A stretch of DNA of 63,824 nucleotides, the filler included, from Nemertoderma westbladi (Eukaryota > Animalia > Xenacoelomorpha), in NCBI GenBank assembly GCA_032718475.1. It is 4 parts of 4 records of this genome, joined end to end, with 100 filler letters (N's around TTAATTAATTAA, not from the genome) between each part and the next. Parts side by side here need not be neighbours in the genome. Positions count along the whole stretch, not along the records: positions 1 to 23,010 come from JAUCBJ010005994.1; positions 23,111 to 42,520 come from JAUCBJ010004256.1; 2 more parts are not named here. One strand, given 5' to 3'. Numbering within the stretch: the first letter of the stretch is position 1; each line of letters opens with the position of its first letter. The position numbers were made by a program, and so were the translations under genes. The notes under the pieces were generated by a model. That model did no database searches. It was not told the origin of the DNA and was given only the letters and a program-made list of their open reading frames with translations. This document shows positions 2,705 to 35,498 of this stretch, in pieces.

Positions 2705-3354
2705 GTGAGTCCAGCTTTAACGTGACTCTCTAAATGGTAAATATAATCTTAAATGTGAAAATTACTTTTTTTTTGACTTCACATTGACGTACTATGTTGT
2801 TAAGGTTATTATCAGTTAATTAAATATGCTTATGGATGTCCATCAATTCCTTACTAATTAAAATGATTAATAAATATTGACAATAAAAGTTGTTTACTTT
2901 ATTGCATATGGAGAGTTTCTAACATTTTATTGTTTTTTTTATTTATTTATCTTCTGGGGAGTATACACATTCGCTTTATTAACACATCGATTACAGATAT
3001 ACTGGAATCAATTAATACACAAGCATAAAAAAATTAATTACGAACGATATCTCGTTAAAAAGTTTACAAAAAAGTTAAACAGTTTATATTACAGTAAGAT
3101 TTACTACTATTATAGCCGAGCGAAGCGATGGTACTTCTGTACTTAAATACATAAATATTATCAATAAGGGCGAGTGTGTAATCATGTAAAGTGCTCATTT
3201 TCAACCGTTTCTAATTGTCATTCTACAGCTGCGTACCGGTACCTATTGCTTGACTGCCTGATATTTTTGGTTATAGAGTGACTACTGAGACTGGCTGTCT
3301 GACCATGTGACTACTGACTGTTTGTCCGTATGGTTTCCCTCAATTGGTAAAGTG

Positions 3355-3484
3355 ACCGTTTATTGTTTTGGTTAGAAAAGCCCGCCTCTGTAGCCTGCTC
3401 CTTTCCCTCAATTGGTAAAGTGGCCGTTTATTGTTTAGGTTAGAAAAGCCTTCATCTGTAACCTGCTCCTTTCCCTCAATTGGT
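3355..3484 (-). mobile_element. Two tandem partial copies of a dispersed SINE-like repeat (core ctgtaacctgctcctttcc)
   Basis: Same core at ~29030-29090 (opposite orientation), ~32565-32630 and ~52020-52080. Confidence 0.65.
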
Positions 3485-3754
3485 ATATATATATACCAGT
3501 GTATAGTATATATACCAGTGTATAGTTTATATACTGATATATACCGGTACTAGTATATATATATATTATTTGTACTGTAGTATACCGGTATATATAAAGG
3601 ACAGTCAGGTCCCCAAAGTAATTATACCCATCAATTTCAAAATGGAAACATTAACTTCACTATGACTGTTATATAAATTTTTTTAACGGCATATCTTATC
3701 ATTATTACATACCAGTAATAAAAAAACCAACCAATATACAATTTATATCTTCCA

Positions 3755-3800
3755 ACCATTACTACTACTACTAGGATCGGCATGCTGCATTGCATAATCG
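3755..3800 (-). mobile_element. 3' tail fragment of the RTE-like LINE family
   Basis: Reverse complement reads gcaatgcagcatgccgatcc(tag)n, matching the LINE 3' end at 27337-27370. Confidence 0.6.
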
Positions 3801-4574
3801 GACCTTCCATATTCAATTCCAACCATATTCACCATCAACGTTTTTTATTTCATTCCACCAACTTAATTATATCATAATTTTTACCAAATTTGTTATCTGT
3901 AATTATTTGCGTTATGGCCCCTTTATACATTATAGTGAACAACAATAAAAGGTATGTCGTTGGGCGCGAACAAACAAATTTGTACTTATTTGTCAATATG
4001 AATAATATAAATTAGGTACGGAGTCATATAAAAGAGTTATATAACCTTTTACATTTCATGAACACAATAGGGTTACCATAATCTACTCGCAGGGCCTTAC
4101 ATAACTGTTCTTACATAACAATGCCAATTTGTTTATGTGCTAAAGTAATGTGAAGTAAAGCACGGGGGTTGTGGTGCGGGTCTGCGACCTCGCCGACTCG
4201 TATTGGCGCGGTTGGCGGCAATAACAGTAAACATGTGGCGTCCCTAACTGTACTAACATCCAATTGGTAAGGGGATCAAATTTATTATGTGTAATGTTAG
4301 CTGTTTACTTTATATTATATTATTAGTTAGTGGATTAAAAGGAGGGTGTTTTGAGTGAAGTAAAGTACTGTTTCTTATTTTCTTTTGATATTAATTTTTT
4401 TAATTACTCTTTCACTGTAAATGAATGCTAGACTGCCCACTCTCTTATTATATCCCGTGAGGCGTGAATCTAATCTGTATGACTGCGGCTCACCGCTCAA
4501 GACAGTAAAGTTAAAAGACGAGGACTGTCTGTATGTGTCCGTCCTCTATGTTCTCGAACTGTCTGGGTCCAGAC

Positions 4575-5515
4575 TGCCATTAGTGCCCACGGGCACTAAT
4601 GTTTCAGTACCTTTAGTGTCCGCGGTCACTTAGTCGCATTATCGCGGGCACTAATGTCCCATAGGACGTTAGTGCCCGCGAGACGTTAGTGTCTGCGAGA
4701 CATTAGTGTCTGCGAGACATTAGTGTCCGCGAGACATTAGTGCTCGCCTAGCGACTTAGTTAGTATATGTAATAAATACAACAGGACAGGAAGACATTTC
4801 CCGCTTCTTTATTTCCTGCTGATGCAAACGAGTCGTTACTTTCTTCAAACTCCAAAGGTACAAATTTCAGTATTTAGTTTCCGCATCTCGTTATTTAACA
4901 TTTTAATTTCAACTTGGATCTTTTATGATTAAAAAATTTATTAACCTCAGCTAGACATGGTAGCATTTATATTATTTGGTTTTGCGGTAAAGTCTTCAAG
5001 GAATGAGGATTAAGCAACGGCGTTTGATTGTTTACAAATAACTGAATAACCTAGTTTTGATTGAGTATACTTCATTTGTTTAACTTTCCTGGAGACAGTG
5101 CGTGTAATACAAAAAACAAGATGCAGTACAATCGTCCGAGGACGCACTAACTAATATATTATAATGAATTAATGATTTCAAGAAAAATACACAGTCGACT
5201 GTCTGACATTTTGTCGACGAATTAATTAGTTAATTAAATTAGGGAATGAATTAAATTAGTTTATGTTAATGGAGGAGGCCGTTGTCGATGATATGTCATG
5301 ATGACATGATTATGTCGGTATAAGTAAGTAAGAAGAAAAACTGATTGCCTTATACTAACTTCCAAATTCAGTGCGGGGTGCGGGCACTAATGACTCGCGG
5401 GCACTAACGTCTCACTTGCAGACAAGGTCCTCGGGCACTATTGACTCGCGGGCACTAAAGTCCTGAGACATTAGTGCCCGCGGGCACTAACGTCTCGCGG
5501 GCACTAACGTCCCCC
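4575..5515. mobile_element. Foldback/MITE-like element with arrays of a ~17-18 bp motif (gagacattagtgcccgc) in inverted orientation at both ends
   Basis: Motif repeated at 4575-4750, mostly inverted (gcgggcactaacgtctc) at 5380-5512, with an AT-rich non-coding middle. Confidence 0.7.
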
Positions 5516-8500
5516 AATCCCTGATATAATGCTGTGGTTTGCAGTGTTGCAACATCACTGTGATCACGATCATAGTGCGTTGAGTTTTAGTGTAATGAAT
5601 CAACCTTTATGTGATTTTCTGTGAGTAGAAGTTGTTCGAGTTTTATCTATGTCAGCTTCACGGTTAGGGAAAAGTATCAAAGCAGTAACGATCGAACATT
5701 CGAACGGCAACGATCCCCCAAAATTAAAAAAAAAACGGAGTGATACAAAATAGTGAAGAAATCGTGGATCGGGATATGGTTACATTAATTAGAGGGAAAT
5801 TCCGGTATCTTATCATATTTTTTATCAGCAGCAACCATCAATAAAATAATACCCAGGAATTCACCAACAGTTATAGAATTAGCATTAGGTAGGCCTTCTT
5901 TCTGTACTTCAGGCGTTCAAGGGAAATGCCAATGGTAGTTTGTTTGGGCAGAAATGGGTTAGTAACAATTTAATTGGATTGGGAATGATAAGATTATATT
6001 TAGGATAATCGAAGCCGATAATAACAGCTGGATATTGTTGGCTGGACTTGCAATGTTTGGTATTTGGTTCCAGACGCCAGACGTGAAACACCGGGGAAGC
6101 AAAAATACCCTTCCTGGTCACCACATTAGTTTATTTACATAAATCTGAAAGTATAAGACAAAGAAAAATAATCAAACGGGTATCCCGTCGTGGCAGAATC
6201 AATGGCGACACATGTGATTTCCCTCTGTTTAAATAATAACAAGATATACAAGGAGCTGTGTAGGCTAAATATGGGAAGCTAACAAATTGACATGGTACAC
6301 TTGCACAGGATATTGTTTCATATCGCCAGAATTATGGGCATATTTAACAAACCACCTGCCACCCATCCTGTTAACATCTCATTTGGTCAGCTGATTTATA
6401 GACACAATTCTGCAATTATTACGTTCACTCTCAATTTTACTAAACTTTTTGCTGATCAGATCACACATACAGTGTGGGTGGATGAAGGGGCTTGTTAAAC
6501 AAATCACAATGGCATAGTTGTTTTTTAAATATGTATATTTGAAAACAAATTAGATTAGCCAAATTATTGTAAAAAAGGTAAAAGGCGCGGGCGTATAAAA
6601 TAATTTTTTTACAATTCTTTACATTGTTAAACTTAAAGTGATCAGCAATTGGTCAAACAATATTCCGACATTCGATATTGATGGACTTTATAGGGAGGCT
6701 ACGCCAGAGCAGTCAGCGCCGTCCATAAAGAACATATTAAAGTTTACATGGAACAGTCATATGCTTGTGTGGAAATATGGGCCCCCTGGCCGTTGCATGC
6801 CGCCCATCTGTTAGCACCATAAAGCGCTCACATTGATCGATATGTATAGTATAAGTGATGTTATATGTACTGGTATGCTATTGATTTGATATTATATATG
6901 ATGTTCGTTATTGGGACATAAAGTTATAAAGTTCTCAAATCATTATTGTCCTCACAATATCCATAAAAATGTAATCGATATGAAAATAATTTCGCATTTT
7001 AACAATTAGGTGCAAAATAGTCAGACAAATTCCGTTTCGAAAATACTTTGCCTAACGAAAGTATATGGGGCATCGTATCGATGGAGGAGTGCCCGAGAAT
7101 CGCCTTAAAAGTGCACTCCGATCCATTACATGTAATCGTTTGGTTATATACATATTGATTCAATTCGAAGCATCTCTATAAGCAACTCCTATATGCTTGT
7201 TGGCGCAATACAATTTAGAAGGACACATTTACACATGTGTTGAAGGCAAAACGACGGGATTACCAACTTGAATATAATTAAATGTAGCCCAGTGGAGCCC
7301 CGATTGTAAAGTTTGCAGATGTAACTGTTGGCCCGGGTGTGTGATCCAGGTTTATGGAACACAGCACCTCGGGCCTCATTAGCGGAGCAAAACGCAGGTG
7401 ATTAGCGCCCGGTTGGATAGATTCATCAGTAAGAACTCCAAGAACGGCAAGACACCAGACTTGTAGACAAATAGTTTACACGTGTCGCAACACAAATTAT
7501 AGGACTAAATGAGATGTTTCGGAGGGCTTTGGTGATTATTGTCCGATGTTCCGTCAGGAATGTCGTCTGTTTGATGCGTCTTTGATTGGGTGACCCAAAA
7601 GTTTGCGTTCTACAAATGAGTGAATATGTATGTCAATAAATCTGGATTCATCAACCCTGTTATCTAACAATTGTTATTTAGGGGATATGGGGGGGGGGGG
7701 GGGGGGGGGGGGTACGAAGCGAACCCTTACATTTTTCTATATGCCATAATCGTAACGTTATCATTGTTGTATAACGCGGAATTATGCAATTGCTAAAGAT
7801 GTGGTCAGTCCAGACCTTTGGTGTGAACTAAACCTGCACGGCCCTTTTACATATTTACATGATTGGCAAAACTCCGTGAAGTTTATTATCCACTTATGTG
7901 AGCCCTAATTGAGAAAAATATCCTTGTAAAGAGGACAGGCAACTGAAGAAAGCACAAAAAAGGCATGTGGACTCAAGGCCTGGATTCAGTGCTGCGACAC
8001 AGTAGTTATTGCCTCTGGCACCCAATGTGCGAGTCTGTTGTTATTGCACCTTCGGTTGTCATGAACAATGCTAATGTACACAATAATGGCTGAAGGCTAC
8101 ATGTCGGTAGCAATGTTCAGTTACATGGGCTATCAGTTGTTCTTAGAGCCCGCAAACACTTGCAGCGTTTGTGCTTGTCTGTGCAACCAGGCCTTCTGAC
8201 ACGGTTGTTACCGGGACCCGGAGCACCTTCACTTGTACTATGGGCGCCTAACAAGGGGACCATAGGTAAACCAGCATGTAAATCACTTTGTTAGGCTGCC
8301 TGAGTGGTCACTTCCTTAAAAGCAGTGTTGTGTAGTTGCTTGTTATTTATGGTAGGTAGAGCCCAATGGAGGTATAGCCACTTAATACCCCCCCCCCCCC
8401 CCCCCCCCCCTCTCGCACACAGCCACAGCCGCCCCTGTACCCATTGTATTTCGGAGCCCCCTTTCCGAGGATTATACCGGATACGCTTGAATGGGAATCC

Positions 8501-9353
8501 AATATTGATTGAGACATAGACGGGGCCATTGAATGTCTTTAAGTTACCCGTGTCAGCTATTTAACAAGGTCTTCATTGGTTTTAATTCATAAAAACGTTG
8601 AAAATGTTTCATATTATACCTATAAATACATGTTGGAGTTGTGCAATAGGTTGTGTCTGGTCTGAAGCACTTATTACCATTTAGTTTCAGTTTCAAACTA
8701 GTTTGAGTAAAAAGTAATTTTTGATATGTTATTTAATTTATTTGCGGTTCGTCTCTGCATTTTCGCCTATAATTTATTACACCCAAGCCCAACGCATGTT
8801 TTGTGTTATATTGTGGAATAATATTATAGTCAATCTATGTAATAGACTTCTAGACTCCAGTGCCAAAAAATGTAGTGCTAACCAGGTGAGTTTAACTGTA
8901 CATGAATACCTTCATAGGACAAGCAAGCAACACTTTAGCTATGGAAGAAAACAAAAGGGAGTATCTATTATCCGATAGCACCATAGGTGTGTATGACCTT
9001 GCCGAGCTCTCCCATAGCCTTAGGGGGTATTAGTCCAAAGGTGCATACTCACTACGTGTGTTATGTTTATATGCTTGAGGGAGTTGTAATATGGCAGTAT
9101 AGAGAGCTATGCCAGGCATGACACCTAATAATGTTAGCCCACCTTATTATATTTACTATTTATTCTTAATATTGAATCTGTATATCCCGCAGATATTGGC
9201 TTTGATACGGTCGAGTGGCTAACCTCTAAAGATACCCCCCGCTGGTGTTAATAGTTGAGAGGCAATTGTAGCGTCGTAAATTAGTTATTAAACTTCTCAA
9301 TCTAATTGCCAAATTACTAAGAGGTCTTCTTTCCATCAATTAATTAATTAATC

Positions 9354-10077
9354 ATGTCATACTCAGACCGAAATTCATTGACCAATCAGCTGACGGGGAT
9401 GCCAGGCAACGGATTCACTGGCTCCCGATTGGGCACCCACACTCCGTCCGCAATGGACCTGCAGCCGCCCTACTTCCCGCCGCCGTTCGCCGCAGCCCAG
9501 CAGGCGGCCGCCGCCTCCATGGAGTTCCACCACCACGCCACCGCCACCGACCCGTACTTCCAGTCGCTACACAACGCCGGTGGCTACGCCGCCCACGCCG
9601 CAGCCCATTTCCAACAACGCCACGCCGCGCACCACGCGTCCACGGCCAACACAACCCCGGTTCACGATCCCCTCCATCACATGTACTCGACGATGCATCA
9701 GCACCAGTTCCAACCGCGCACCGCGGACGCCTACAGCGCCTTCCGTCGTCCGGACATGGTCCCGATGTCGGCAGACACCGAGTCCGCTCTCTGGGCCGGT
9801 CTCCACAACATCAACATGCCGGGGGAGGTGAACGACGCCTACGGACTGGTTGACCACAACGTCATGCGGAAGGTGGCCACCATGCGGACAAAGACGGAAC
9901 TGGATATTAGTCACAAGGAGCACATGTTGGGGAGCGCGTTGGTTAGCCCCATGGATGTGTTCTGTTCGGTCCCCGGGCGATTGTCTCTGTTGAGTTCAAC
10001 CAGTAAATATAAAGTGACGGTTGCCGAGGTTCAACGACGTTTAGGACCTCCGGAATGTCTCAACGCTTCGCTACTCG
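9354..10077 (+). CDS. TFAP2: Transcription factor AP-2, first coding exon (PY activation motif and start of the basic domain)
   Basis: [10 protein letters not shown] motif; [41 protein letters not shown] is the AP-2 signature; phase-1 donor G|GTTAGT at 10077/10078. Confidence 0.95.
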
Positions 10078-10364
10078 GTTAGTATAGCTAAGGATATTAC
10101 AGCTAGTTATATATAATATAGAGGAATGTAGTGTTCGGGGCAGAATTGATAACTCCAGGATGATAGCTGCGGAAAATTTCGTGCCCGAAAAATTAGAAGA
10201 GAGGGGAGCTATTGAAGCAAAGTTGAAGGGAAAATTACAGGGGAAACAAACGCAAGTTATAGCCGATACTGGGAAAAATGAAACTTTAGCCTGTATTGAC
10301 TTTGGTTTATTATTTTGGTTAAAATATTTTTTAGAATATTTTATTATCATGGATCAGAAAGTCA

Positions 10365-10950
10365 GGTGAAAACCTTCGGATACGTAAGGGGAAGGCATGG
10401 GCAGTGTTAAATAGTCTGTCCGGTCCAGGATTTGGAAGTCCCATAGAATAAAACGGAACCTTAAGGTGCTATTATTTATGGCAGCAGTAGTACCAGTACT
10501 CATATATGGGAGTCCATGCTAGGCTCTAACTGCAGAGGGTACCAAATCTCTGGATGGCAATTTCACAAGAATGCTGCACCGGGTTCATTGTGTCAAGTAC
10601 AATGAACACATCTCCAATCAGACTCTATACAACATTGGAAGTGTTCCATTAGTCTCCCATAGCTTGGCACTTGAACGGAACCGCCTCCGCTTTGCAGGAC
10701 ATTGCTTTCGCCGTGAGGACCAGCCAGTGCATAATCTTGTGCTTTGGTGGCCTCATGGAGTGAGTAAGCATGGTGGACAGCCCATGACTTTCTTGAGACG
10801 CATCTTAAAGGACACTGGCCTTGAAGATGCGGATGATCTAGCAAATGTCATGGGTGATAGGGAGTTGTGGCGGCGCAATTTTGTCGACAGCCGGCACAGA
10901 ATTTTTAATATATATGTAATATATAATGCAGCTGCAATGTAGCATGCCGA
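10365..10950 (+). mobile_element. 5'-truncated, degenerate RTE-like LINE copy inside the TFAP2 intron
   Basis: Near-identical to 26790-27355 (RLRFAGHCFRREDQPVHNLVLW...DRELWRRNFVD); in-frame stop upstream. Confidence 0.85.
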
Positions 10951-13900
10951 AAGGTATACATTTTCATGATCATATAATAACATGATAATATTGAAGAAAG
11001 TAGAATAACGTTTTATTTTAAAGGGAATTTAGCTTATTTATGACAACGACAGTTTGTAAATATCTTTGTCAAATGGTTCCCCGATAATATATGTAACTTA
11101 TGTCTCTGGTCTGTTATTCATATCAGTATGTTCATTTGAAATCTACTGTATTAAATGAGTTTATTGCACCTGAGGTTATAGTCGATAGTATATAGGGTGG
11201 ATGCCATTAATCATATCGTCCATAAATAATCTGCCGCCCATAAAGATTGAGGTATCCACTTGACGACAGGATTGGATCGAATTCTAACATTTTGGGTGAT
11301 TTCCTGTCCCCAGTGCCCATTGCTTTCGTATCTGGCGCACATAAACTGGCTTCTCCAATGAGATATTTCACAATGAGATTCAAGATTAGCATCCTGTAAT
11401 TAAATATCAGCTCTCTATTGTCACTTGCATGATTTTATACGAAGTACTAACTAACCACTATGATTTAATTAGCATAAGGTATGGTAAAAACCATAAATTA
11501 AAAAAAAAGAAAAAATCCATCAAAATGTTCGTATGTTGCTATTTCGTTAATAGTATATTTTTTTCAATATTTTGTTGAACTAGGACAAAATGTTTAGCTG
11601 AAGTAGCGCAAACTTTAAATTAAACATTTTTGGTGTCCTGTTTGCCCAATATGTAATCTAGCAAACATTATGCAGATCCAGATGCTCACCCTCCTTGTAT
11701 ATTGTCTATTCTTCGACTGGGCTTAACTATAGGACTGCGACAAACAAAAATATAGGGCATATTTCCTTTCGACCTTGACCAACACACGCACGTGGTGTCG
11801 TGTATCACTGACTCCGCACTGCACAGTTCATCTACCGCGTTGATCCAGTTGAGAGTTGATCCAAGGAACAAGGGATCCGCTCTCGTGAAGAGGACTCATT
11901 ACCGTAAATGACAATGCAACCTGACACCGATTGCAATCTCCCTACTTCTCCGACGTTAGCTACACTATTACGAATTATATATAATAATCCCCGGTAGTTT
12001 CTAAATATAGACAGAAAGTACGAACGAACAGAACATTAGTTATTTTATAATTAGCCATTGAGTCCACTGACTGTGTATTTGTATCTTTGATTACTAAGTT
12101 AACCTTTAACCACAAAATCACAACAAATTGTGATAGAGAATACGCGCGATGGTATTTTTTACAAGAATTGTGAGTTATTTTTGAAATTAAAAACAGAATG
12201 CATTAATTATCATCTAAATCCCTTAAACCGCGCACTCTCAGCTTTTACGAAGGGGTCGTCCATCGTAGTATAATTAGTAGGCAGCATTCACCTGTCAGTG
12301 GGAGTGTTAGATAACGTGTTTGAGTGGTTTACGGGGAGCTCAGCTCCCAACAGGGTGTACCACAGAAGGGCCATTCCTATCTGCCCGGGCCACTCGTCTC
12401 CTGGCCTATCACAAACTCCCCGCTGAGGAATACCTTTTGTTACCAACTTTGGATTCAAAGTCTCTGCTATATGTGGATCGATGGTAGATAAAATCTTGCG
12501 GTCCGTATATTGTCGCATAGAGATTGCGTCACAAGGCTCGCCCATACGATATATAGCTTGAACAACACCTTGCATCAAGCTGTAACAATATCAATCTACA
12601 TTCCCCCCTACTCTGTGTAAATACTTGTTATTGAGTTATACCTGGTGGCGTGGGTGACACCGCGTTCTACAAATATTTGTATTTTAGGTCCGTCGATATT
12701 TCACACGCTTTGAAATATTTTTCTCATTCTGCTTTTATTGGATTGGTAGATTCATGGTATTTGTATTGGCAAATCGTTTAAACACTCAGGACTTACAACA
12801 CATGTGTGATAGTGGGCTCGCCTTCATCTCTTTCACTATAGTTTCACGTTTACACAATGATGCTCTTCCTCCAGATCTTTAGCTCGAGTATCGTTTTCAG
12901 TTTTGAAATATGGTGAATAATACATTCGAGAAAACACAGCCAGGGCGACAATAAGGTAGGTGAAGCGTCGCCCTCCCAAAGGACGAAGTCTCAGAGTTAT
13001 GCGAATAGGAATATTAAGTAACTCAGAATACGACATAGCCCATAATTTAAACTTAACTTTAGATCAAACAACACTATCCTATACGTGATACATGGGCTTG
13101 AAGCAAACAATTGGATGTATATTTATATAAAACTTATCGTGCTTATTGTGCTTATCTTTCTAATTCCAAATGAACGTACCTTTGCATGTTACTGAGTCTG
13201 TTACAGTTGTTGTAGGACATCGTGAAGCACAGGCTGCAACATTTACGATAGGCCAGAAGTGCTATTTCGACGCCCTCCCTACCCGCGTCAAAATAGTCCA
13301 TTTGGGAAACTGTAGTGGGGCTAATTGCCGGAGCTTACCAAAGGGCCTAGGGGACTGGTCTATTCACACCCGACTCCCAGACAAAGAAGGTCTCCCTACA
13401 GGGGCCCCAATTAACCGTGCTACCCAGAAATCATATCAATAGCCAGGTATGCTTCTTGTCATACATTGACACTGTGATTGTATAGTTGCAGAGTCGGCCC
13501 TTTTCGTCGTTCTGGGGCCCATACAAGATCACTGCATAATATATAATCACAGAATTCCAAGTCGGTTGACAATGAATAGCAAAGCCGGTTTCCAGCCTGC
13601 AATGGCGTCTTATATTACTAATTCAAACTCTCACTTCCGTTTCGGTTGGGATTAAACACAGCCATAATTCTAATGTATTTTTTTTGTTTGGATGTAATGG
13701 ACGGATTGACACTCTCGCGCCATGTAGAAGCTACATAGCGATGGTTTTAGCGGGTTTGGTGTACCTAGCCTGGAGCGCATCCTCAGTGAAACTGCTTCGG
13801 AATATCGGATTAGGTGATCGACAACAATGGTATAGTTATAATATTTTCTAAAAGGACTAAAATAAACATGGGATGCCAAAAGAATGCATGTATATAAGGC

Positions 13901-15111
13901 AATGATTTCTAAGTTGATATCGCAGATTTGGATATAGGTTTTTTCGCATCGATTCAACGAATTATCATTAGGTAAAGTTTGCGCGTTGAAATCCGTACAA
14001 CCGACATTAGTTTGCTCGGGAACGGGATTATTTCATGCCTCATTTCCCGCCCGATGTGGTGCCGGGGCTTCTGATTTGGAAAGTTAGATGGGTGTCACGA
14101 CAAGTTAATTGCGACAGCCAACTCCTTGATTACAGAGGCAGTTCGTGGATGAGTGGGCTGGTTTAAGGGCCTTATTTACCATTGCACTAAGGTCACCCTC
14201 ATGCACAATTATTAGAGTGTATTATTACAATCAGAGGACATTTACAATTTTTAATCAAGTGCTCCAAACCATTACCCAGCATCCCCGGTACAATTCGCGT
14301 TCTCTAGGTGAGTTTGCAATTGGAATTTTATAGTTTTCGTATCCCTTGAAGGGCATCGTTTGAGTATATAATTTGTATTCGAAAGCATTGGCAGTATAAT
14401 TGCGCGGGTGGATACGTTCGAAAGCAAGATTGGCGCTGAAATAATGGCCACAATAAATTTAACTTTCTGTTCGACTGTTTAATTTAATATATATGGCTAA
14501 TCTATTTGATAAAATGATGAATGATAAGTCGTGAAAGAAAAATAAATAAATTACTCCCTTGAAAACGTCTTTGTTTTGTAGTCACCCTAACATTACCAGC
14601 TATGGTAGATAGTAATAAATATTCGCTGATGATGACTTCTGCGTTTTGTGGCCCCAGATATGTTACTATGTATCCCTAAACTTCCAGAATATTTTGTGTT
14701 CTGTTTAGAACATTTATCACAAATAAAGCAATCGAGATGAAAGAATAGATGATTAATAATCTTATATTTGGGATTCAAATTACATAGATTTTAATAGTTT
14801 TTTTGCCGGTGTATAATAGAATATATTATTCTTCCATATTGAGGTTTCTTTAAAAGGCAGAATATATTTCACTGTTGCAATCCTATAGTATAGCTCACAT
14901 AGACAGGACTTTCCGCACAATAGTGGCACAAACAGATCGAATGCTGGTGCACTAGTCTTCAGGAAAAACGTGATCATTAATCACGCGTTCGATACATGTT
15001 GTTTTGAAAATTTTCCACTACCAGGACTGGTTAGCGTCGATACTACCTTACAGGCTCAAGCGAAATTTAAATGGCGGTTGCAGGAAAACAAATATAATTT
15101 ATATCTCAAAA

Positions 15112-15578
15112 GGAAAGATTACAGCTTTATTTAACTTCCCGGAGTCTGGGGTAGGAAAGATTACAGCTTTATTTAACTTCACGGCGTCTGGGGTAGGAAA
15201 GATTACAGCTTTATTTAACTTCACGGAGTCTGGGGTAGGAGAGATTACAGCTTTATTTATCTTCCCGGAGTCTGGGGTAGGAAAGATTACAGCTTTATTT
15301 AACTTCCCGGAGTCTGGGGTAGGAAAGATTACAGCTTTATTTAACTTCCCGGAGTCTGGGGTAGGAAAGATTACAGCTTTATTTAACTTCACGGCGTCTG
15401 GGGTAGGAAAGATTACAGCTTTATTTAACTTCACGGCGTCTGGGGTAGGAAAGATTACAGCTTTATTTAACTTCACAGAGTCTGGGGTAGGAAAGATTAC
15501 AGCTTTATTTATCTTCACGGCGTCTGGGGTAGGAAAGATTACAACTTTATTTAATTTCCCGGAGTCTGGGGTAGGAAG
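15112..15578. repeat. 42-bp minisatellite, 11 copies (ggaaagattacagctttatttaacttcccggagtctggggta)
   Basis: Exact 42-nt periodicity, few substitutions, no spacers. Confidence 0.95.
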
Positions 15579-16479
15579 GAATTATTGTGAACAATGACCC
15601 GGTAAGCAAAGCCACATTTATGCCAATGTGGATTGTCAAGGTGCGTCATTTGTCTCATTAAGCGTACCCCCCCTGTCACAGATAGGACATTCAAGTCACT
15701 TTGCTTGTGTGTTAGTTAGCTTTATTTAACTGCTATACAGCCTAACTTTGGTAAAATAAATTAGTTAAATATTAATTAATTATATTGTATCTATTACTAT
15801 AACAAAGAAGCAGATTCTGGTTCAGTTTCACCTTCTGAAATGAAATAGAAGGCGAACAGAACAGTATCACCCTCAGTGAACTGCTTCAAAACATACCTGC
15901 CCCACGTGTCTCACATTTTGACACCTTATAACCATTAAAAACGAAACTGTTGCTTGTAGTAACAGAATTAATAAGAACATTCACATTCGGCACATTTATA
16001 TCACTGCGCTAATATTGCTGGTTTCTCTATATTATTATTCCGCTAAAGTTACGGTCATTAAGTCAGAATAAACCCTATAAACCCAAATATGGTTATTGAC
16101 ATTCATTAAATTATTATTCTGGCGCCTTTTACACGCTATATTATCGTATACCCTATACACGCGTATATACATCCTGTACACTAACATTAAAACATTAAAA
16201 ATTACATTAACACACTCGGTTGACCTCGCTATAGCTACCCCTTTGGCTATATCAACAAGAACAATTGAAACCAGTTATGGCAGTCTTTGTGGGGTCAAAT
16301 TATAAGTGTCTAACCCCCAGAGGTGCCAGGGTGGTAGACTCCCATTGCGGTAACAATAGCGGCCCCCAACTGAGAACAACGTACCCTGTCATTAAAGTAT
16401 TAGCTTGGTTACCCAATACTCAGGGCCTCTCTAGGCCAAAATCCTGTACCCTGCCTGCCTGTGTACTGTGTGTGCGTCC

Positions 16480-16920
16480 GAGCTTGTCAACCCATCCATC
16501 ACTATTGTCTTCGAACATGTTGGCGGCAGTGTAGACCGCTTTGTTCAACATTTTGTCCCCATTGTCGAAAACCATGGAGGTACAGACACCGAGGTGCTAC
16601 ACTCATGCCCGGTGTATGCCGACAATCCGTAATGCTGGCCCCATCATTCCGGGCGCGGGTTACCAGTCCCATCCGAACCGACAAACAAGTACACATAAAC
16701 CTCGCAATCACTCAACTAGCCCCGTATTAATTTTTTCCTATGTCTATGACGCGGCCCTTCTGCGGGCTATGGAGTCGCGTCGCTCACCATTCTTGGCCCC
16801 CGATCGCATTCGCTCAGAGTCTTCCTGACGGGCCTCCAGACATGGGGCCTATTCACAAGGGGTGGCTACAAGTCTGTCCCACTTACATCCATGCTATAAC
16901 AACCCGCCTCAGGGTTTTAC
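16480..16920 (+). pseudogene. Possible decayed DIRS/Ngaro-type tyrosine recombinase fragment
   Basis: Frameshifted pieces MLAAV*TALFNIL, RTDKQVHINLA, SHSLRV and PTYIH lie in the order expected for a YR; the resemblance is weak. Confidence 0.25.
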
Positions 16921-18203
16921 GGTTGGTTACCTGCGACCTATAGATAGATTGTCATGTACTTAGAGCTTCTTGCATTGATAAATATCTCTCTCTTTCTACA
17001 CGACTCTTGAATGCTGAACAATGTGAGAGCTTATCACAGAGTAACGTAGACGACCAACTGTCTTTCTCCTGCCCTAAGGCCCTTTTGAAAGTCTGAAGGC
17101 ACTGGTTTTTATAAAGCCGGCGCGTCGTGAATCTCTTATAGTTCCAGGTAAACTGCTAGTCGCCGTCTTACCATAGTGAACAACAAGTAGAAGATGTTAA
17201 TTAATATTATCATCATCTTGTTAACAACATGTTATTTATAATGATTCCCTTCCCAATGAAGGTCGACCGAAAACGTCCGTAATCTCAAAATACTAAGTAG
17301 AATTTAATTATTTTTTGTCATTAAGTGGCGGGTGTGTTATCCACTCATTGGCACGTAACACATACCTTTCCATTGCCCGCATTTCAACGGTTGTGTATTT
17401 TTTTTTACAATTCAAATCCTATTCACAACTGACGAGATGATTTGGCATTAATAACATTCCATTTAGGTGTCCAGTTAGAATGCCAGTGATACGATTAATA
17501 AGGAAGTCTGATTTTGAAAGTTTTATAAAGAGCGGCGTTGAAATTTGATGTATATTCTAATATGTAACATGGATTTATTTTGTAATCTTCTCTGCGTGGG
17601 CCCTATCCACCGCGTTTCCAAGTGCATTCTTTCTGCTTATTAGCTGAGGTATAACGGCTTTTAAGCCTCGCCAAATCGATAAACACGGCTTGGTAATATT
17701 GATCGTACGAAAGAACTGCGATTAAAAGAAACTTTGCGATAATCAAGAGTATCGATCAAAACTCAAAACGTTTCAGCTTCTGTGGGAATTGGATCTGTGG
17801 AACTTGGCGGATCTAGGCGGATCTAACGCTAAGTAAAAGCAAAATAAACTACCCCAATGTGGATGTACCAGAGTGGCGACTAGCCACTTCATACCATATC
17901 ACGCCTCCGCGCACGTGACCATTTTATGGAGTAGCAATAGCACCCAGTCCCATTTTTATTTGCAAAGACAATTGGCACATATTGTAATTTTCAAAAATCG
18001 TAGCAAATCAAAGATTCAAGGGGGTAACGCAAATCCCATCACGGCGGCTTAATTTATCTTCTAAATATTAAATTATTAATTAAGGGAAAGTAGAAAGGAG
18101 GCGATGTAAACCATTGTTACGGGGTTGGGGTGTTACATTGTATATATTAACTGGAATATATATAAACTAAATATTAACTAAACCACACGTTACTCTTTTA
18201 CAG

Positions 18204-18808
18204 GAGGTGTTTTGAGACGAGCCAAATCGAAAAACGGCGGCCGATTATTGCGAGAAAAACTCGAGAAGATTGGTCTGAATCTGCCGGCGGGCCGCCGCAA
18301 AGCCGCCCAGGTGACTCTACTGACGGCGCTAGTCGAGGGGGAGGCTTTACATCTCGCCAGGGACTTTAGTTACGTCTGCGAAACCGAATTCCCATCCAAA
18401 GCTATAGGCGACCACGTTGCCAGGCAACACAGCGAACCTGCCGAGCAAATGCAGCGTAAGAGTATGGCCCTGGCGGCGAAACAAGTCCTCAAGGAATTTG
18501 GTGACCTCCTGAGTCAGGACCGGTCCCCAATCGGAAACACGAGACCCAACGGGATACTAGACCCCGCTATGCAGCGGGCTCTCACTCACTTCAGTCTGAT
18601 CACCCACGGTTTCGGAACGCCGTCCCTTCTCGCTGCAGTCACCGCCATACAAAGTTACTTAACTGAAATGCTCAAATCCCAGGAGAAACTATATATGAAC
18701 AGTTCCCATGGCACCGCCCCAACAAACCGGCACTCTGGTGATACAGACTCTCGGAGTGTCCACTCCAACGGTAGTTCTGACTCATGTAAAGAAAATATTT
18801 CCTCATAG
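18204..18808 (+). CDS. TFAP2: Transcription factor AP-2, last coding exon (basic region and helix-span-helix); total protein 442 aa
   Basis: [34 protein letters not shown]...[20 protein letters not shown]...[12 protein letters not shown]; TAG stop; AATAAA at ~19030. Confidence 0.97.
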
Positions 18809-24650: not shown

Positions 24651-24714
24651 AGCTACGCGTGATTTCCTGAGCCAGATCCATATCCCCTCCTCTTCCCTCG
24701 TATGTGGGTTTGGG

Positions 24715-25134: not shown

Positions 25135-25192
25135 AATAGTCCAAACGTTTCGATATATTAACTTTATATCATCATCAGTTGGAGTTACTAAT
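25135..25192 (-). ncRNA. Minimal type I hammerhead ribozyme-like motif
   Basis: Minus strand: tccaa CTGATGA t gatata-aagttaa-tatatc GAAA cgtt tgga; conserved core, 6-bp stem II, palindromic ACGT stem III, imperfect stem I. Confidence 0.65.
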
Positions 25193-25386
25193 AGATTATT
25201 AGAGTTAAAATTCAAACTGTAAACTAGAATAATTCTTTATACAAACGGGGCCTAACAAAAGGTGCCAAAGACTGACTCAAAAGAGGCCTGACAGGCTTCT
25301 TTTGTTTAGAGAATTAATCTAGTTTACCGTTTGAAATTTAACTCTAAAAAAGTGTCTATTTGTAACTCCACTTTTGATGATATAAA

Positions 25387-27370: not shown

Positions 27371-29009
27371 TGATATAAAGTTAATATATAGAAACGTTTG
27401 GACTATTGAAATTTATTTTTATATTGCGCCTTTTTTTTTACTAAAGACTTATGTACAGTCTACAGTGCTATAATTAGTTATTGATTTTGTGTTTCTAGAA
27501 TTAGAATTTCGTTTAGACTACGAGATGCGAGAGACCCGTATGCAGTCCATAGCCTATCTGGGGGCGATCACCGCCCATTTCTCGTACTGGGACTCCCCAG
27601 ACGTCGCTTTGTTCCTATTGCAGTGCGAATTCCCAGACTATGTGCAGTGGAGTAAAAAATAAACCCTGGGAAGAAGCCATGACAACCGGTTACAAACATA
27701 ACGGATAAATTAATGTTTTACGTAAATCTATTTTTGTATCATATAATTATTATTAATTGGTGCTAATTTTACCTCATTACAAATAATTCAATTAATTTAC
27801 AATATTTATTTACAATACTGCCTTATCTTCTTCTTATTGTGCTGTTATATTATTTTATCCTTTGTTTGTTATACTTTTTTGTGTTTATATATAATTCAAA
27901 ATTTATTTTAATAATATATTTATAGTTATATAATAATATTCTATTATTCTATCTGTAAAGTACATTCGTGAACGCAAGTGGCAAAATGTGCAGCCCTAGT
28001 AGACCGAGCCCCATTGTACACCAAACGTTTAATTTCACGGTATTTCTTCAGCAGTCGTTTCGTAAAGCTACAATATGTTGTTAAGCACTTTACAGTGTTC
28101 AGATTCTCATATTATTCTGACTGTCCTACCAGTTGGACTTGAGTATGTAAACTGAAAGTAAAAAAACGTTCACACCCACCTGTATGGGGCGAGCTCAGGG
28201 TCCTATTTATTATTCAAACAGTCAGAATTCCCGTCGTGTAAATAATGAATTTTACCTGTACTCGTACTCGACGCATGTTTGACTAAATATTAAATGTAAA
28301 ATTGTTGTTGCCCCCTCCCGAGGGTGACCAAATGGAATTTGGTCACTTAGATTCCTTTGATCCATAGTTCCAGCCAACAATACAAACTCTTTATCTAATG
28401 ATACCACCGGTGACCTGGACAAGAACCTACCTACAGAGGTTCCATTTCTAGAAAATATTTAAAAAATATTATATTTTAGTAATTAATAAACTTCCCTCGA
28501 GTAATGCACTTTTCGAACGGCCCATGTGAAGATAACAGATCTCCAATATCCATACTCGCTAGGAACATCCCTCACGTTAGTCTCAACATCTTGGGTGGGA
28601 CAGGAGTAGGCCAGGGGCCAAAATATATACTAAATCATATTTCAACTCTTAATTTTCGACTGTACAGTAGCTTGCGTTTCAAGGATTCCAATATAACAAT
28701 GTCTGAGTATTGTTACAAAGATTGCAAGAATTATCGTTCGCTGCAGGCCAAAACACTATTAAAGGCCATGGTGTAATCGTACGGATCAAACGTAAAGCGT
28801 TTAATAATAAGGATGTATTGGAGTTTGAAGCCCCGCGGAATGAAACCCAACTTAAGATATTTATTCATTATGTAGATAAGTTTATCCATTACGGGGTTTA
28901 CTTTAAATATTATTGAGTCACTATGTCATTGGGTAGTGGGCATATCCACACTCACTCTCCAGACTGCATAAAGTTGATAGCCGGTGTAACAGGCTGAGAT
29001 AACTCCCCC

Positions 29010-29095: not shown

Positions 29096-29166
29096 CCAAA
29101 GGTTACAGTCATTTTTGCAATCCGAAAATACCACAGGTACGGATATGGAACTATAACTCAATTATG

Positions 29167-29260: not shown

Positions 29261-29508
29261 TCTCAGGTAGTGGACCCTTCCTTAAATATAATTATCAAAA
29301 TTTATGATAAAAACTAACAACAATCAATTACAATAAACTCATAATAACTCTTATTCTGGCTCACCCAGCAAGGAGGATAGGGGGGAGATGAAACTATCTC
29401 TGTTTCAAATTTCATGCAATCGCACTCACTCGCTCACTCGATTACCATACATATTATTATGTGTTTGAATAATAGAAATAATACTGTAATAACGTATATA
29501 ATATTAGT

Positions 29509-32025
29509 ATGATCGCAACATTTGATGGGAATCCCAAGACAACAGTTATATGTTGCTACAGTCCAACCAATGCCTCAGAGCCAGAACAAGCAGTCAAGTT
29601 TAATGAAGATCTGACTGGACTTATAAAGGACATTCCGAAACACAATGTTAAAGTCATTGCTGGTGACCTGAATGCGCAAATTGGCCCAGAAGACATCAAG
29701 GGTTACACCTATAACACCAGTTCTAACAGAAATGGGTACTTACTTTTAGACCTAATGGAAGAATGTGAATTGATACCAACAAACAACACATTCGAAAAGA
29801 GTAAGGGGAAGCTATGGACCTTTCAATGCCCTAATGGAACCAAAGCACAACTGGATTACATCCTTATAAACAAAAAGTGGAGAATCAGCATGATCAACTG
29901 CGAGGCATACAGCTCGTTCAACCTAATTGGTTCGGACCACAGAATTGTGACTGCAGAGATCAGACTCAGTTTGAGAGCCAGCAAACCCAGGACAAGCAAG
30001 CAAATCAACTATGACTGGGAGAAACTCAGAACTGACAATGCAGTAAAGGATGCTTACACAGTAGAAGTTCAAAACCGCTAATAAAAACAAAAGCTAATAT
30101 ACCAGAATATAATAACAGCCCACAAGGAATCAGCTAAGAGGCATATCCCCCAGAAACCCAAACGAAAACAGTATGTGTCATGGCAAAACTCTGAGGTTAC
30201 TTGTAAGAGAGAAGATCTTAAGATAGCCTACAAAGTTACAACCGAACAACCAACAACAGAAAACATTAACAAGGTTGAGAAAGGACGATCTTAAATTGGC
30301 CTACAACATCAGCCAGGAAAAGTACATACAGGATAAAATTGAAGCAATTACAACTGCTCACATACAGCAACAATCAAGACTTACCTGGCAAACTGTAAAT
30401 GAGGTATCTGGTCGGAAAAGTTGTGCAAAGGGGCGCCTCAAAGCCGATAGTCCTGAAGAACGTGTTGGGAAGTGGAAAAATCACTTCAGCAACTTGCTTG
30501 GGCAGCCACCAAACATCGAGGTCAGCCCTACAAGGAAAATATATGACAAGACACTACCTATAGAAACAGGGGATTTCACACCTGCCGAACTCCAAAGAAG
30601 CATTAAAAGCATGTCCAATAATAAAGCGAGTGGATTAGATGAAATCCCAGCGGAGGTATGGAAAACAGGAGTGCTAAACAGACCATTATTGAATGTTTGC
30701 AACCGGATGTTAAAAGGGGAAAAGCCACCACCAATTTGGACTAAAGGTCAACTAAAGCCTCTCCCCAAGAAAGGAGACCTCGGTATACCAACAAATTATC
30801 GTGGGATCTGTCTGCTTGTGGTAGCTGCCAAAATATACAATAAAATGATTCTATATAGGATTAGGCCTCACATAGAGAAACTACTGCGTAAGAGCCAAAA
30901 CGGATTTCGACCAAGTAGATCAACAATAGCTCAGATACTTGCACTACGGAGACTGATTGAAGGAATTAAGTCGAAGAATCTCCCCGCAGTCATGACTTTT
31001 GTGGACTTCAAGAAGGCATTCGACTCCATCCATAGAGGCAAAATGCTTGAAATCCTAAGAGCTTATGGAATACCAGAAGTAATTGTTGCTGGCATTGGAT
31101 TGTTATATTGTGACACAGAAGCGCAGGTACTCTCACCAGATGGTGAAACTGAGTTTTTCTCAATCCTGGCTGGGGTACTGCAAGGTGACACATTAGCACC
31201 ATTACTATTTGTAATTGTGCTGGATTACGCAATGAGGACAGCCACAAAGGGTGAAGACCTGGGATTCACACTTCAAGAACGCAGAAGTAGTAGATATCCG
31301 GCAACTACAGTCACAGACACCGACTTTGCGGATGACATCGCCCTGCTCTCTAATACGCTAGCAGATGCACAGCTTCTACTAAATAAAGTGGAGAGGGCTG
31401 CTAAGGAGGTTGGATTGCATATAAATGCTACCAAGAGCGAATTCATGACCTTTAATGTTGATGGAAACTTGACAACCATTGACAATAATCAACTAAGGAA
31501 GGTTGACCACTTCCAGTACCTTGGATCATGGATAGAGAGTAGCAAAAAGGACATAGAAGTTAGGAAAGCAAAGGCTTGGGTAGCTCTATCAAAAATGGAT
31601 ACCATCTGGAAATCAGATCTCTCCAGGCACCTGAAGACTAAGTTCTTTCGAGCCACAGTGGAAAGTGTATTTTTATACGGGGGTGAGACCTGGACACTGA
31701 CTAAATCACTTGAACAACGAATTGATGGTTGCTACACAAGACTACTAAGGGCAGCCCTAAACATCAGCTGGAGACAACACATGACAAACGCCGAGCTTTA
31801 TGGTACAATACCACCTGTATCAACCACCCTCCGTGAACGCAGATTAAGATTCAGTGGGCACTGCTGGCGAAGTAAAGACGAGGTCATACCAGATCTACTT
31901 TTCTGGCAACCAACTCATGGAAAGCGTAGTCGTGGACGACCGGCCATAACATATATAGATCAACTTGAAAGGGATACTGAACTTGGGAGAAACGAAATTG
32001 CGACAACTATGGAGAATCGGTGTAA
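29509..32025 (+). mobile_element. RTE-like LINE ORF (APE endonuclease + reverse transcriptase), disrupted between 30081 and 30275
   Basis: CYSPTN, GDLNAQIG, LDYIL, SDHR (APE); QNGFRP, FVDFKKAFDS, QGDTLAP, FADD, YLGS (RT); C-terminal GKRSRGRP. Confidence 0.92.
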
Positions 32026-32083
32026 GACTAACTATATGACAGTGTACAGTAGAATTGATATGTCAATATCTAATTACCGCAAT

Positions 32084-32141
32084 CAATAATTAATTATCAT
32101 GTAACTATGAGTATTCATAGTTACATGATAATTAATTATTG
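32084..32141. repeat. Perfect 27-bp inverted repeat with a 4-nt loop
   Basis: caataattaattatcatgtaactatga-gtat-tcatagttacatgataattaattattg. Confidence 0.95.
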
Positions 32142-32745: not shown

Positions 32746-32859
32746 CTTGGCAATCTTAGCAGTGCTAAGGAATATACTGTATAAACTGGGTCTGGGATGA
32801 TGGTGGGTTCTAAGTTTAGCTAACAGCCTAAGCTGCTAAGATATCTAAGTTCTCTTCGA

Positions 32860-33203
32860 ATATATATATATATAGGACCTACTGTGTACTGTGTACTGCT
32901 GTACTGTGTAAGTTGTATAGTGTTATATATATATATAGGACCTACTGTGTACTGTGTACTGCTGTACTGTGTAAGTTGTATAGTGTTATATATATATATA
33001 GGACCTACTGTGTACTGTGTACTGCTGTACTGTGTAAGTTGTATAGTGTTATATATATATATAGGACCTACTGTGTACTGTGTACTGCTGTACTGTGTAA
33101 GTTGTATAGTGTTATATATATATATAGGACCTACTGTGTACTGTGTACTGCTGTACTGTGACTGTGTAAGTTGTATAGTGTTATATATATATATATAGGA
33201 CCT
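32860..33203. repeat. 63-bp minisatellite, ~5 copies, ~250 bp upstream of the ERCC6 ATG
   Basis: ggacctactgtgtactgtgtactgctgtactgtgtaagttgtatagtgtt(at)n repeated. Confidence 0.95.
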
Positions 33204-33449
33204 GAAACGAGATCCTCTAAGTGAAATATATGTACATTATTACTGTATTAACTCGAATATGTTGCTCAGTTTTATAAATTATAAATCTTACCGCCCGCAC
33301 TGTGTACTGCTGTACTGCAGTACAGCAGTAGGCCTACTGTGTAAGTTCGCAAAGACAGAAAGATCTAAGTTTATCTTTCTTTACCGTTCAGATTATACAT
33401 TAGGCCTATACCCGTTAAACGGTAGCCTAACTATTAATTAAAACTAAAA

Positions 33450-34866
33450 ATGAGTACCGGTGATAATATGGAGGATTTGGAGGAATCAAAAGGAGCTGAT
33501 GATGATATAAATGAATTCGACGTCATGTGCAGATCTCAAGAGGCGGTAGAAGCTGAAATTATAGAGAAAATACAATCGGACTTCGATAAGAAAGATAAAA
33601 GTATACGCGATAAACAGCGAAAACGTAGAATTCTGGGCCTAAATTCAAAAATAAAGAAATTAAAACATAGTTTGGAATACAAACGGAACCTTCTGAATGA
33701 GCTAAGTAAGGGTTCAGTTTCCTCTGCGTTGTATACGTTCAGGAAATGGGAGCGGCTGGAAAGGGAATGCGGGCAATTACAAAGCGAGATCGATAGAAAA
33801 GAGAGTGAGAAGTTGGAGCCGGATGTTTCTTGCGTCGACGTGTTAAATTTCGACGCCCCTAATGAAACAGAGCAGGAACGATTGATTAGAATAGGGGAAA
33901 TAAATCCGTTCGAATTAGCGGATACTGGGGAACCTCTTGTCGGTTGTAGTCGCGTGGAGGGAACCGGTACCGATAGGAACGGAACCGGTAGGCCTACCGA
34001 TAGGAACGGAACCGTTACCGATAGGAACGAAACCGGTAGGCCTACCGATAGGAACGGAACCGGCACCGGCACAACCACCAGCGACGAGGAGGCTGCCGAT
34101 CCCTCCTACCAATATTCCTCGGATGACAGCGGAAAGTTAGTCGAGGATTTTGGAAGCGCCGAAGTAAAGTGGGAGTTTAAGAAGGGAGTTTATAAATCAC
34201 AATGCGAGGCGGCGGCGAGGAAAAAAGTAAAGCGAACGAAAGCCGCGGCGAGGAAGGCGTTGGATAAATCGAAACGAATTCCTAATAAACTCCGGAAGGA
34301 CTCGGTTGTTGACGACTGGAACGAGACGCAATACCGGAAGCGACAACGCGAGTACCAGTTGGATAGGTTGTTATACGAGGGAGAGAATGGGTTGGAACCG
34401 GTGGAGGGAGGGTTGAGGGTGCCGTTGGGAGTGTGGAGGAGGTTGTACGAGTACCAACGGAGCGCCGTGAGGTGGTTGTTTCGGTTGGACAGACAGGGGG
34501 TCGGCGGGGTGCTGGGCGACGAGATGGGGTTGGGGAAGACGGTGGAGGTGGTTGGGTTCCTGGCGGGGTTGGCATCGAGCGGGTTGGGTCCCGGCGGCTC
34601 GGCGGACGGCCCCGGCGGCTCGGTGGACAGTCCCGGCTACCGGGGTCTCGGTCCCGTGTTGGTCGTGGCCCCCACCACCGTGCTGCACCAGTGGGTGCGG
34701 GAGTTCCACCGCTGGTGGCCACCGTTTCGGGTTGCCATCCTACACGATTGCGGTTCCTACGTCGGGGACAAACGGAAGCTGATTCGCGAGACATTCCGGA
34801 AGCGCGGGGTTCTTGTGACGTCATACACGACGCTAAGGATAAACGCGGCTGTTATACTCGCTTTGG
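33450..34866 (+). CDS. ERCC6: ERCC6/CSB SNF2-family ATPase, exon 1
   Basis: ETEQERLIRIGEINPF (CSB N-terminal motif), LYEYQ, GGVLGDEMGLGKT, PTTVLHQWVREFHRWWPPFRVAILH; phase-1 donor G|GTCCGT. Confidence 0.93.
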
Positions 34867-35498
34867 GTCCGTCTAAACACCCCAAATAATCACAAAATAA
34901 TGGAATCAGGGAGCAGCAGACCCACATAAAGGGCCGACACCAGTGCAGTAAATCCATGTAAACAAAATATGGACCCTTAAAAATACTTGTTCTAGAACAA
35001 AACTCATTTTATAAGTAAATAACTAACAACATATTCTAGAACATTTCTCAAAGTATAGCTGGATTAATAATTATTTGATTAATAATTAATAGTCTAAATA
35101 GAATTATTACCTTTTTGTAAATTCTCCTTAGACTAGTCTTATATTCAATATAATCTTATCCTCGATTTAATAGAACCGATTTAATTAAATCGATAGCAGT
35201 TTAAATAAAAGGTTATAATCCCTGCTGCCCATTGACCTGTGATAAAAAAACCTATCGATGTTCAAACAATATTTTTTTCAAATTGCATTTATTGACCATT
35301 CATAACAAACACTACGTTATACTTTATATATAAAAATGTTATTGTTAAACAAAATAATAATTTTATACATTAATATTCTAGAACACGTTTTTCGCTCCGT
35401 TCCTAAACCCAACCCAATTCGAAGTGGTTAAAATATTTTGGATCCCTCCAGCGTTGTGTGTTATTGGGGGTGTTTACCCGGACCTCCCCTCCCCCCAG
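34867..35498 (+). other. ERCC6 intron (632 bp) with weak donor GTCCGT and complementary ends
   Basis: G+AC restores ILAL-DWHYAILDEGH in frame; acceptor ctcccctccccccAG. Confidence 0.85.

What the first reader, a model, noticed from the sequence alone, without database searches (positions are those of the whole stretch)
2705..35498. Every complete intron in the window has base-pairing ends: candidate structure-guided splice-site pairing system
Seen: in three introns of two unrelated host genes (2705-9192, 10078-18203, 34867-35498), the first ~40 nt from the GT are complementary to a segment ending ~5-25 nt before the AG. The arms differ completely in sequence between introns, so they are not one transposon family's TIR, and several non-Watson-Crick positions are G-U wobbles. 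Known precedents: AC/GT repeat pairing in zebrafish introns, paired introns in Giardia and euglenozoans, and TIR-bearing introners. Inference: this animal may close long, transposon-filled introns with intron-specific RNA stems that bring donor and acceptor together. I know of no description of this as a general rule in an animal, but n=3 and one of the three introns is itself inferred.
Basis: partly seen in the sequence, partly recalled or inferred. Interest (0 to 1): 0.9.

Follow-up and report, generated by a model that had tools for sequence, protein, structure and literature searches.

The report
Acoel introns with self-complementary ends
In this animal, likely an acoel worm, the two ends of each of three predicted introns are more complementary than chance, strongly in one and weakly in two, which likely marks them as newer introns left by inverted-repeat transposons; that the ends pair as RNA to guide splicing throughout the genome remains untested.

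Summary
Partly confirmed. The ERCC6 intron (34867-35498) has a real terminal stem from +1 to -16: -49 kcal/mol, z about -6, robust to every test. The inferred AP-2 5'-UTR intron (2705-9192) has one 17-bp helix at +27..+43 / -47..-31, not a stem from the GT. The AP-2 coding intron (10078-18203) is complementary at sequence level (shuffle p 0.016) but binds no better than background as RNA (136 of 250). All three outscore 21 of 21 control animal AP-2 introns. G-U wobbles are not enriched over A-C (9:6), and the one allele seen in an arm is uncompensated. The AP-2 gene lacks all four intron positions seen in other animals; its coding intron sits at a position found in 0 of 38 comparison introns. 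The ERCC6 arms are single-copy. Best reading (0.40): newly gained introns keeping decayed terminal inverted repeats, some still able to pair. A selected genome-wide pairing rule stays open (0.30). No genome and no RNA-confirmed junction were available, so n remains 3.

The parts
2705..9192 (+). Inferred 5'-UTR intron of the AP-2 gene (6488 nt); consensus donor, junction not confirmed
   Evidence: alternative donors at 4267 and 8886
2731..2747 (+). 5' arm of the 17-bp helix of intron 1 (+27..+43)
   Evidence: 16 Watson-Crick pairs and 1 G-U
9146..9162 (+). 3' arm of the 17-bp helix of intron 1 (-47..-31)
8886..8891 (+). Alternative consensus donor for the 9192 acceptor; does not pair with that 3' end
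   Evidence: anchored p 0.81
9354..10077 (+). AP-2 coding exon (start codon inferred from likeness to acoel AP-2 N-termini)
10078..18203 (+). AP-2 coding intron (8126 nt, phase 1) at a position not seen in other animals
10078..10120 (+). 5' arm of intron 2, AT-rich, starts at +1
   Evidence: 32 WC, 4 G-U, 3 A-C, 3 transversions, 4 gaps
18134..18178 (+). 3' arm of intron 2, ends at -26 on a branch-point-like motif (motif recalled)
18204..18808 (+). AP-2 last coding exon; uninterrupted over three intron positions used by other animals
33450..34866 (+). ERCC6/CSB coding exon 1
34867..35498 (+). ERCC6 intron (632 nt, phase 1), weak donor, closed by a predicted terminal stem
34867..34904 (+). 5' arm of intron 3, includes the donor (+1..+5 paired with probability about 1 in the predicted ensemble)
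35447..35483 (+). 3' arm of intron 3, ends at -16, leaving the pyrimidine tract and AG free; one allele alters it at 35464-35465
35499..37900 (+). ERCC6/CSB coding exon 2

Best explanation
These are likely lineage-specific spliceosomal GT-AG introns that arose from insertions with terminal inverted repeats, and the complementary ends are likely the decayed remains of those repeats, still predicted to pair as RNA in the ERCC6 intron and, through one 17-bp helix, in the inferred AP-2 5' intron. Shown: end complementarity above chance and above control introns; loss of four shared AP-2 intron positions; a new position for the AP-2 coding intron; single-copy arms in ERCC6. Inferred: the insertion origin, later growth of the two AP-2 introns by nested mobile elements between the arms, a pyrimidine tract and AG lying outside the 3' arm, and any help the surviving stems give in bringing donor and branch region together.
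For: Arms start at +1 in both homology-supported introns and stop after about 40 nt with no deeper or exonic extension, as a terminal repeat would. Transition mismatches fall on both strands alike, 9 G-U to 6 A-C, as neutral DNA decay predicts. Intron 2 keeps sequence symmetry but no RNA binding advantage. 0 of 38 introns called in other animals' AP-2 loci lie at the intron 2 position, while 28 of 38 lie at four shared positions that the window's gene lacks. The two genes hold 2 coding introns in 5148 coding nt. The window carries several inverted-repeat pairs decayed to 70-91% identity, a range that the intron arms (28-31 WC of 42) lie at the old end of. The single arm allele seen is not compensated and costs 2.8-4.3 kcal/mol. 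TIR elements are the commonest source of classified introners (PMC12130899, passage), and relic symmetry in single-copy introns is described in Hypoxylon (PMC9024468, passages).
Against: No second copy of any arm in the window and single-copy depth over the ERCC6 arms in three DNA runs at 85% likeness, so no parent element is identified. No target-site duplication is evident at the junctions (by eye). The 3' arms end 16-26 nt inside the AG, which a simple TIR insertion does not give. In intron 1 the match is concentrated in 17 near-perfect pairs with background beside them, which fits selection or chance better than even decay. All three introns would have to be of similar, fairly recent age. 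The ERCC6 intron position was not compared with other animals.
Confidence: 0.4

Rival explanations
1. A selected, genome-wide rule: after losing ancestral introns this lineage relies on intron-specific RNA stems, whatever their origin, to hold the donor next to the branch region while leaving the pyrimidine tract and AG free.
For: 3 of 3 introns exceed all 21 controls on complementarity score. Of three consensus donors upstream of 9192 only 2705 pairs with that 3' end (p 0.0015 vs 0.81 and 0.93). In introns 2 and 3 the first two intron bases pair with an A-C at -27/-26 and -17/-16, in the usual branch zone (zone recalled). Introns 1 and 3 bind well after allowing for local folds. The ERCC6 donor is weak. 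Precedents with tested function: PMC4691745 and PMC2724269.
Against: Intron 2, the only long intron supported by homology, binds no better than background (136 of 250) because its arms fold on themselves. No G-U excess. An uncompensated allele segregates in an arm, although the stem is predicted to survive it (29 vs 30 pairs). In intron 3 the stem would bury the donor. No covariation data.
Confidence: 0.3
2. Only the ERCC6 stem is real, a single structured intron of a kind scattered through animal genomes; the two AP-2 matches are chance products of AT-rich sequence, donor/branch-point complementarity and the choice of the first intron's ends.
For: Their ranks depend on scoring and arm length: intron 1 is at background for 25-35 nt, intron 2 for 60 nt. 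One of 21 controls (L049) reaches p 0.002 in the anchored test, whose 42-nt length I chose after seeing the arms. Intron 1 is inferred, and 30% of genes in another acoel are trans-spliced (10.1101/2022.08.27.505549, passages), so 9192 could be a trans-splice acceptor.
Against: With fixed 60 x 80 windows both AP-2 introns still reach p 0.002 and 0.016 and rank in the top 0.3% of about 3140 window segments under neutral scoring; each donor scores best with its own acceptor in 5 of 5 alignment schemes.
Confidence: 0.25
3. The junctions used in the cell differ from those proposed, so the arms do not flank real introns.
For: No joint was listed in 4 of 4 runs laid on ERCC6; a contig of the RNA-like run X4 runs unbroken from 35438 across the proposed acceptor. 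Slightly higher homology scores exist for non-canonical cuts 2 nt away.
Against: Both coding junctions are the best canonical GT-AG solutions and restore conserved protein without insertion or deletion. A +2 allele at 35464-35465 would shift the frame if that stretch were coding. Run X4 is only guessed to be RNA and has a hole over the donor side.
Confidence: 0.05

Closest known systems
TIR-derived introns and introners (Micromonas, Fritillaria borealis, Physarum U12 introns; review PMC11282704, passages; surveys PMC9860276 and PMC12130899, passages)
   Same: Introns at lineage-specific positions with inverted repeats at their ends.
   Different: Here the borders are canonical GT-AG, the arms are single-copy and unrelated between introns, no TSD is evident, intron density is low and two introns are 6-8 kb.
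Fungal introner-like elements and Hypoxylon sister/unique stwintrons (PMC3609843, first third of text; PMC9024468, passages)
   Same: Canonical spliceosomal introns whose terminal stem of about 45 nt can join the ends and cover the branch element; symmetry persists as a vestige in single-copy introns.
   Different: Those are short and, when young, multi-copy; these are long, in an animal, with no sister copy found.
Teleost (AC)m-(GT)n bridged introns (PMC4691745, abstract and Discussion)
   Same: Complementary sequence at opposite intron ends in unrelated animal genes.
   Different: There one simple-repeat pair is shared, it covers 10% of genes and function was tested; here arms are intron-specific and untested.
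Long-range intronic stems of Drosophila (PMC2724269, abstract) and yeast donor-to-branch 'zipper' stems (recalled; cited in PMC4691745)
   Same: Intron-specific helices near both ends; intron 1's 17-bp helix has this geometry.
   Different: Those were found by conservation and shown by compensatory mutants, and concern a minority of introns.
Euglenid nonconventional introns (PMC4770533, PMC3935182, search listings; PMC11282704, passages)
   Same: End-to-end pairing with intron-specific sequence, likely MITE-derived.
   Different: Non-canonical borders and a non-spliceosomal or unknown mechanism there; GT-AG ends and pyrimidine tracts here.

Membership tests
Introners / TIR-derived introns | Several near-identical copies in unrelated loci | tested here: not met
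   No copy of any arm in the window; single-copy depth on the ERCC6 arms in runs X1-X3 at 85% likeness. Older copies below 85% elsewhere could not be seen.
Introners / TIR-derived introns | Terminal inverted repeats | tested here: inconclusive
   Imperfect arms from +1 in introns 2 and 3, ending 26 and 16 nt inside the AG; only a 17-bp internal helix in intron 1.
Introners / TIR-derived introns | Lineage-specific (gained) position | tested here: met
   AP-2 coding intron: 0 of 38 comparison introns at this position. Not tested for ERCC6 or the UTR intron.
Introners / TIR-derived introns | Target-site duplication at the borders | tested here: not met
   None evident beyond 1-2 shared letters in the junction displays; many introner families also lack it (PMC9860276).
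Teleost (AC)m-(GT)n introns | AC repeats at the 5' end, GT repeats at the 3' end | tested here: not met
   No such arrays at these intron ends.
Teleost (AC)m-(GT)n introns | Splicing depends on the stem and not on U2AF2 | not testable with these tools
   Needs minigenes or knock-down.
Functional long-range intronic stems (Drosophila/yeast type) | Duplex stable against local folding | tested here: inconclusive
   Met for introns 1 and 3, not for intron 2.
Functional long-range intronic stems (Drosophila/yeast type) | Conservation or compensatory change in relatives | tested here: inconclusive
   No orthologous intron was found among 80 loci; the one arm allele is uncompensated.
Euglenid nonconventional introns | Non-canonical borders | tested here: not met
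   All three are GT-AG.

The most novel reading that the evidence does not exclude
This acoel lineage has replaced its ancestral introns with a new set, and most of its spliceosomal introns, including multi-kilobase transposon-filled ones, are defined by intron-specific RNA stems that dock the donor beside the branch region: a euglenid-like pairing rule running on a canonical animal spliceosome.
Probability: 0.3. Interest if true: 0.88.

Novelty: new variant of a known kind. Interest (0 to 1): 0.58.

Why it matters
How splice sites find each other across long introns, and where new introns come from, are both open questions. If acoel introns in general carry paired ends, either reading is informative: as relics they would record a wholesale replacement of ancestral introns by inverted-repeat insertions in a bilaterian of key phylogenetic position; as selected stems they would give an animal in which structure-guided site pairing is the rule. 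Public acoel genomes and transcriptomes make the test a short computation, and at least one acoel is a laboratory model.

Tried and rejected
No whole genome is held, so no genome-wide test. The run search listed 8 runs, none on record as RNA: 'no RNA holder listed', no evidence either way. Laying 4 of those 8 on 33250-38400 listed no joint; the hole in X4 over 34061-35437 is no evidence. The AP-2 junctions have no read-based check. The first locus search failed for want of a conserved block; the second returned 80 of 269 loci, mostly spliced transcripts, none showing the window's intron position; 17 of 38 called introns were dropped before use as controls (6 shorter than 140 nt, 10 not at a shared position, 1 duplicate), and two near-identical introns (L062, L063) stayed in. 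Rfam: 0 matches in the window. Rejected: one shared TIR family (cross matrices); extension of the arms into exons or deeper into the introns; G-U enrichment as a sign of RNA-level selection; donors 4267 and 8886 as pairing partners. Earlier scan notes held nothing on this genome or look-alike stretches. Literature: searches found no paper on paired intron ends or intron turnover in acoels; the main texts of the two introner surveys hold 0 occurrences of acoel, Hofstenia or Xenacoelomorpha, but their supplements were not read and subscription journals are not covered.
Full report
Setting. The window holds two host genes on the + strand, a transcription factor AP-2 and ERCC6/CSB; the other Pfam hits among 99 scanned frames (of 128 of 80 aa or more) are retroelement-type domains. 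Among the 120 listed relatives of the AP-2 C-terminal exon the highest identities are to acoels, Convolutriloba 77% and Symsagittifera 75%, and the N-terminus resembles theirs, so the animal is likely an acoel; the species was not determined. No genome is held.

Are the introns real? For both coding introns I scored every donor/acceptor pair within 30 nt against four homologues. The 5' intron is inferred only: three consensus donors lie upstream (2705, 4267, 8886) with many possible acceptors, and another acoel trans-splices 30% of its genes (10.1101/2022.08.27.505549, passages). No junction is confirmed by RNA: none of 8 listed runs is on record as RNA, and no joint was listed in the 4 laid on ERCC6.

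Is the pairing above chance? It depends on the intron and the measure. Duplex energy of first 60 against last 80 nt: -21.0, -19.5, -49.2 kcal/mol, shuffle p 0.046, 0.49, 0.0005. Binding net of local folds: -15.3, -4.8, -26.2, matched or beaten by 3, 136 and 0 of 250 GC-matched background pairs. The whole ERCC6 intron folds with the terminal stem in both the minimum-energy and centroid structures, z -7.7. As plain sequence complementarity all three stand out: scores 31, 31, 38, p 0.002, 0.016, 0.001; 0-8 of about 3140 window segments do as well under neutral scoring, though up to 73 do for intron 2 when only Watson-Crick pairs count. I built a control set from AP-2 loci of other animals: 21 of 38 called introns were kept; none scores above 23 or reaches p<0.05, and their binding spans -3.5 to -10.3. 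A test anchored at +1 over 42 nt gives p 0.0015, 0.0025, 0.0005, with 2 of 21 controls under 0.05, one at 0.002; that length was chosen after seeing the arms, and at other lengths intron 1 falls to background (25-35 nt) and intron 2 weakens, while intron 3 stays first throughout. So: one strong stem, one short near-perfect helix in an unconfirmed intron, one diffuse AT-rich symmetry without RNA stability.

Anatomy. In introns 2 and 3 the 5' arm starts at the first intron base and the 3' arm ends on an A-C at -26 and -16, leaving the pyrimidine tract and AG outside. In intron 3 the predicted stem buries the weak donor. In intron 2 part of the match is the donor pairing with a branch-point-like motif, which the consensus sequences give in any case (recalled). 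In intron 1 the helix is +27..+43 with -47..-31, and the donor sits in its own local hairpin. No arm extends into exons or deeper than about 45-55 nt, none has a copy in the window, and DNA runs show single-copy depth over the ERCC6 arms at 85% likeness, though a 41-nt piece inside that intron (34980-35020) is multi-copy.

History. Other animals interrupt the AP-2 domain at four shared positions (10, 9, 7 and 2 of the 38 called introns); the window's gene has none of them, and its one coding intron lies 16 nt upstream of the nearest, at a position seen in 0 of 38. The two genes have 2 coding introns in 5148 nt, and acoelomorph genes average 3-6 exons (PMC10565955, passages). The simplest reading is loss of ancestral introns and gain of new ones; a retrocopy origin of this AP-2 gene is not excluded. 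The ERCC6 position was not compared.

Relic or function? RNA-level selection should favour G-U over A-C; the counts are 6:4 and 9:6, not significant but low in power. The only variant seen in an arm (run X3, 35464-35465) has no partner change and weakens binding by 2.8-4.3 kcal/mol, while the stem is predicted to persist. Intron 2's arms prefer local folds. The window contains inverted-repeat pairs at 70-91% identity, so a supply of such elements exists. These points favour decayed terminal repeats. Against: no parent family or target-site duplication, a 16-26 nt tail outside the 3' arm, the uneven match in intron 1, and the need for all three introns to be of similar age. That only the 2705 donor pairs with the 9192 end fits either reading. 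Origin and maintenance need not exclude each other, as in euglenids (PMC11282704, passages).

Comparison. It works most like TIR-born introns and aged fungal introner-like elements but fails the multi-copy test, so I do not file it as an introner. It differs from the teleost AC/GT class in having intron-specific arms and from Drosophila stems in lacking any conservation or mutant evidence. Nine literature searches found nothing on this in acoels; supplements were not read.

Verdict. Observation partly confirmed. I put about 0.7 on end complementarity being a general feature of this genome's introns (relic 0.40, selected 0.30), 0.25 on one real stem plus chance, 0.05 on wrong junctions. Interest 0.58: unproven at n=3, but cheap to settle and notable under either main outcome.

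Noticed in passing
window 35438-37563: A contig of run X4, whose cover (33392 to 38348, ending about 30 nt after an ATTAAA) looks like RNA, starts at 35438 and crosses the proposed acceptor unbroken. It starts one base inside a 5-letter repeat of the end of exon 1, and 35442-35498 is an open, in-frame 57 nt. Could be retained intron or an odd junction.
   Followed up: partly
window 43142-56323: Two nested large inverted-repeat pairs (43142-43396/56069-56323, 91%; 43897-44585/54832-55501, 70%) enclose broken LTR-retroelement frames (DUF1759, aspartyl protease, DUF7041, RNase H).
   Followed up: no
window 61059-63375 (- strand): Several long frames without Pfam hit; the last has a His-x-Gly-His...Tyr pattern that recalls tyrosine recombinases (recalled, not tested).
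   Followed up: no
window 3344, 18030, 29025, 32570, 38405, 52017: A dispersed 60-120 nt repeat family at 70-88% identity, one copy about 40 nt upstream of the 3' arm of intron 2.
   Followed up: no
window 23011, 42521, 57487: Three assembly gaps are each followed by the same 9-letter AT motif, probably an assembly or library trace.
   Followed up: no
window 25096-27450: An 85% inverted-repeat pair brackets a LINE-type reverse transcriptase fragment; a longer LINE lies at 29482-32086.
   Followed up: no
window 15111-15577 and 32861-33195: A 42-nt array (11 copies) inside intron 2 and a 63-nt array (5 copies) just upstream of ERCC6.
   Followed up: no
L049:2404-2685: A control intron at a shared AP-2 position also aligns from +1 to -15 with its own 3' end (anchored p 0.002).
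   Followed up: partly
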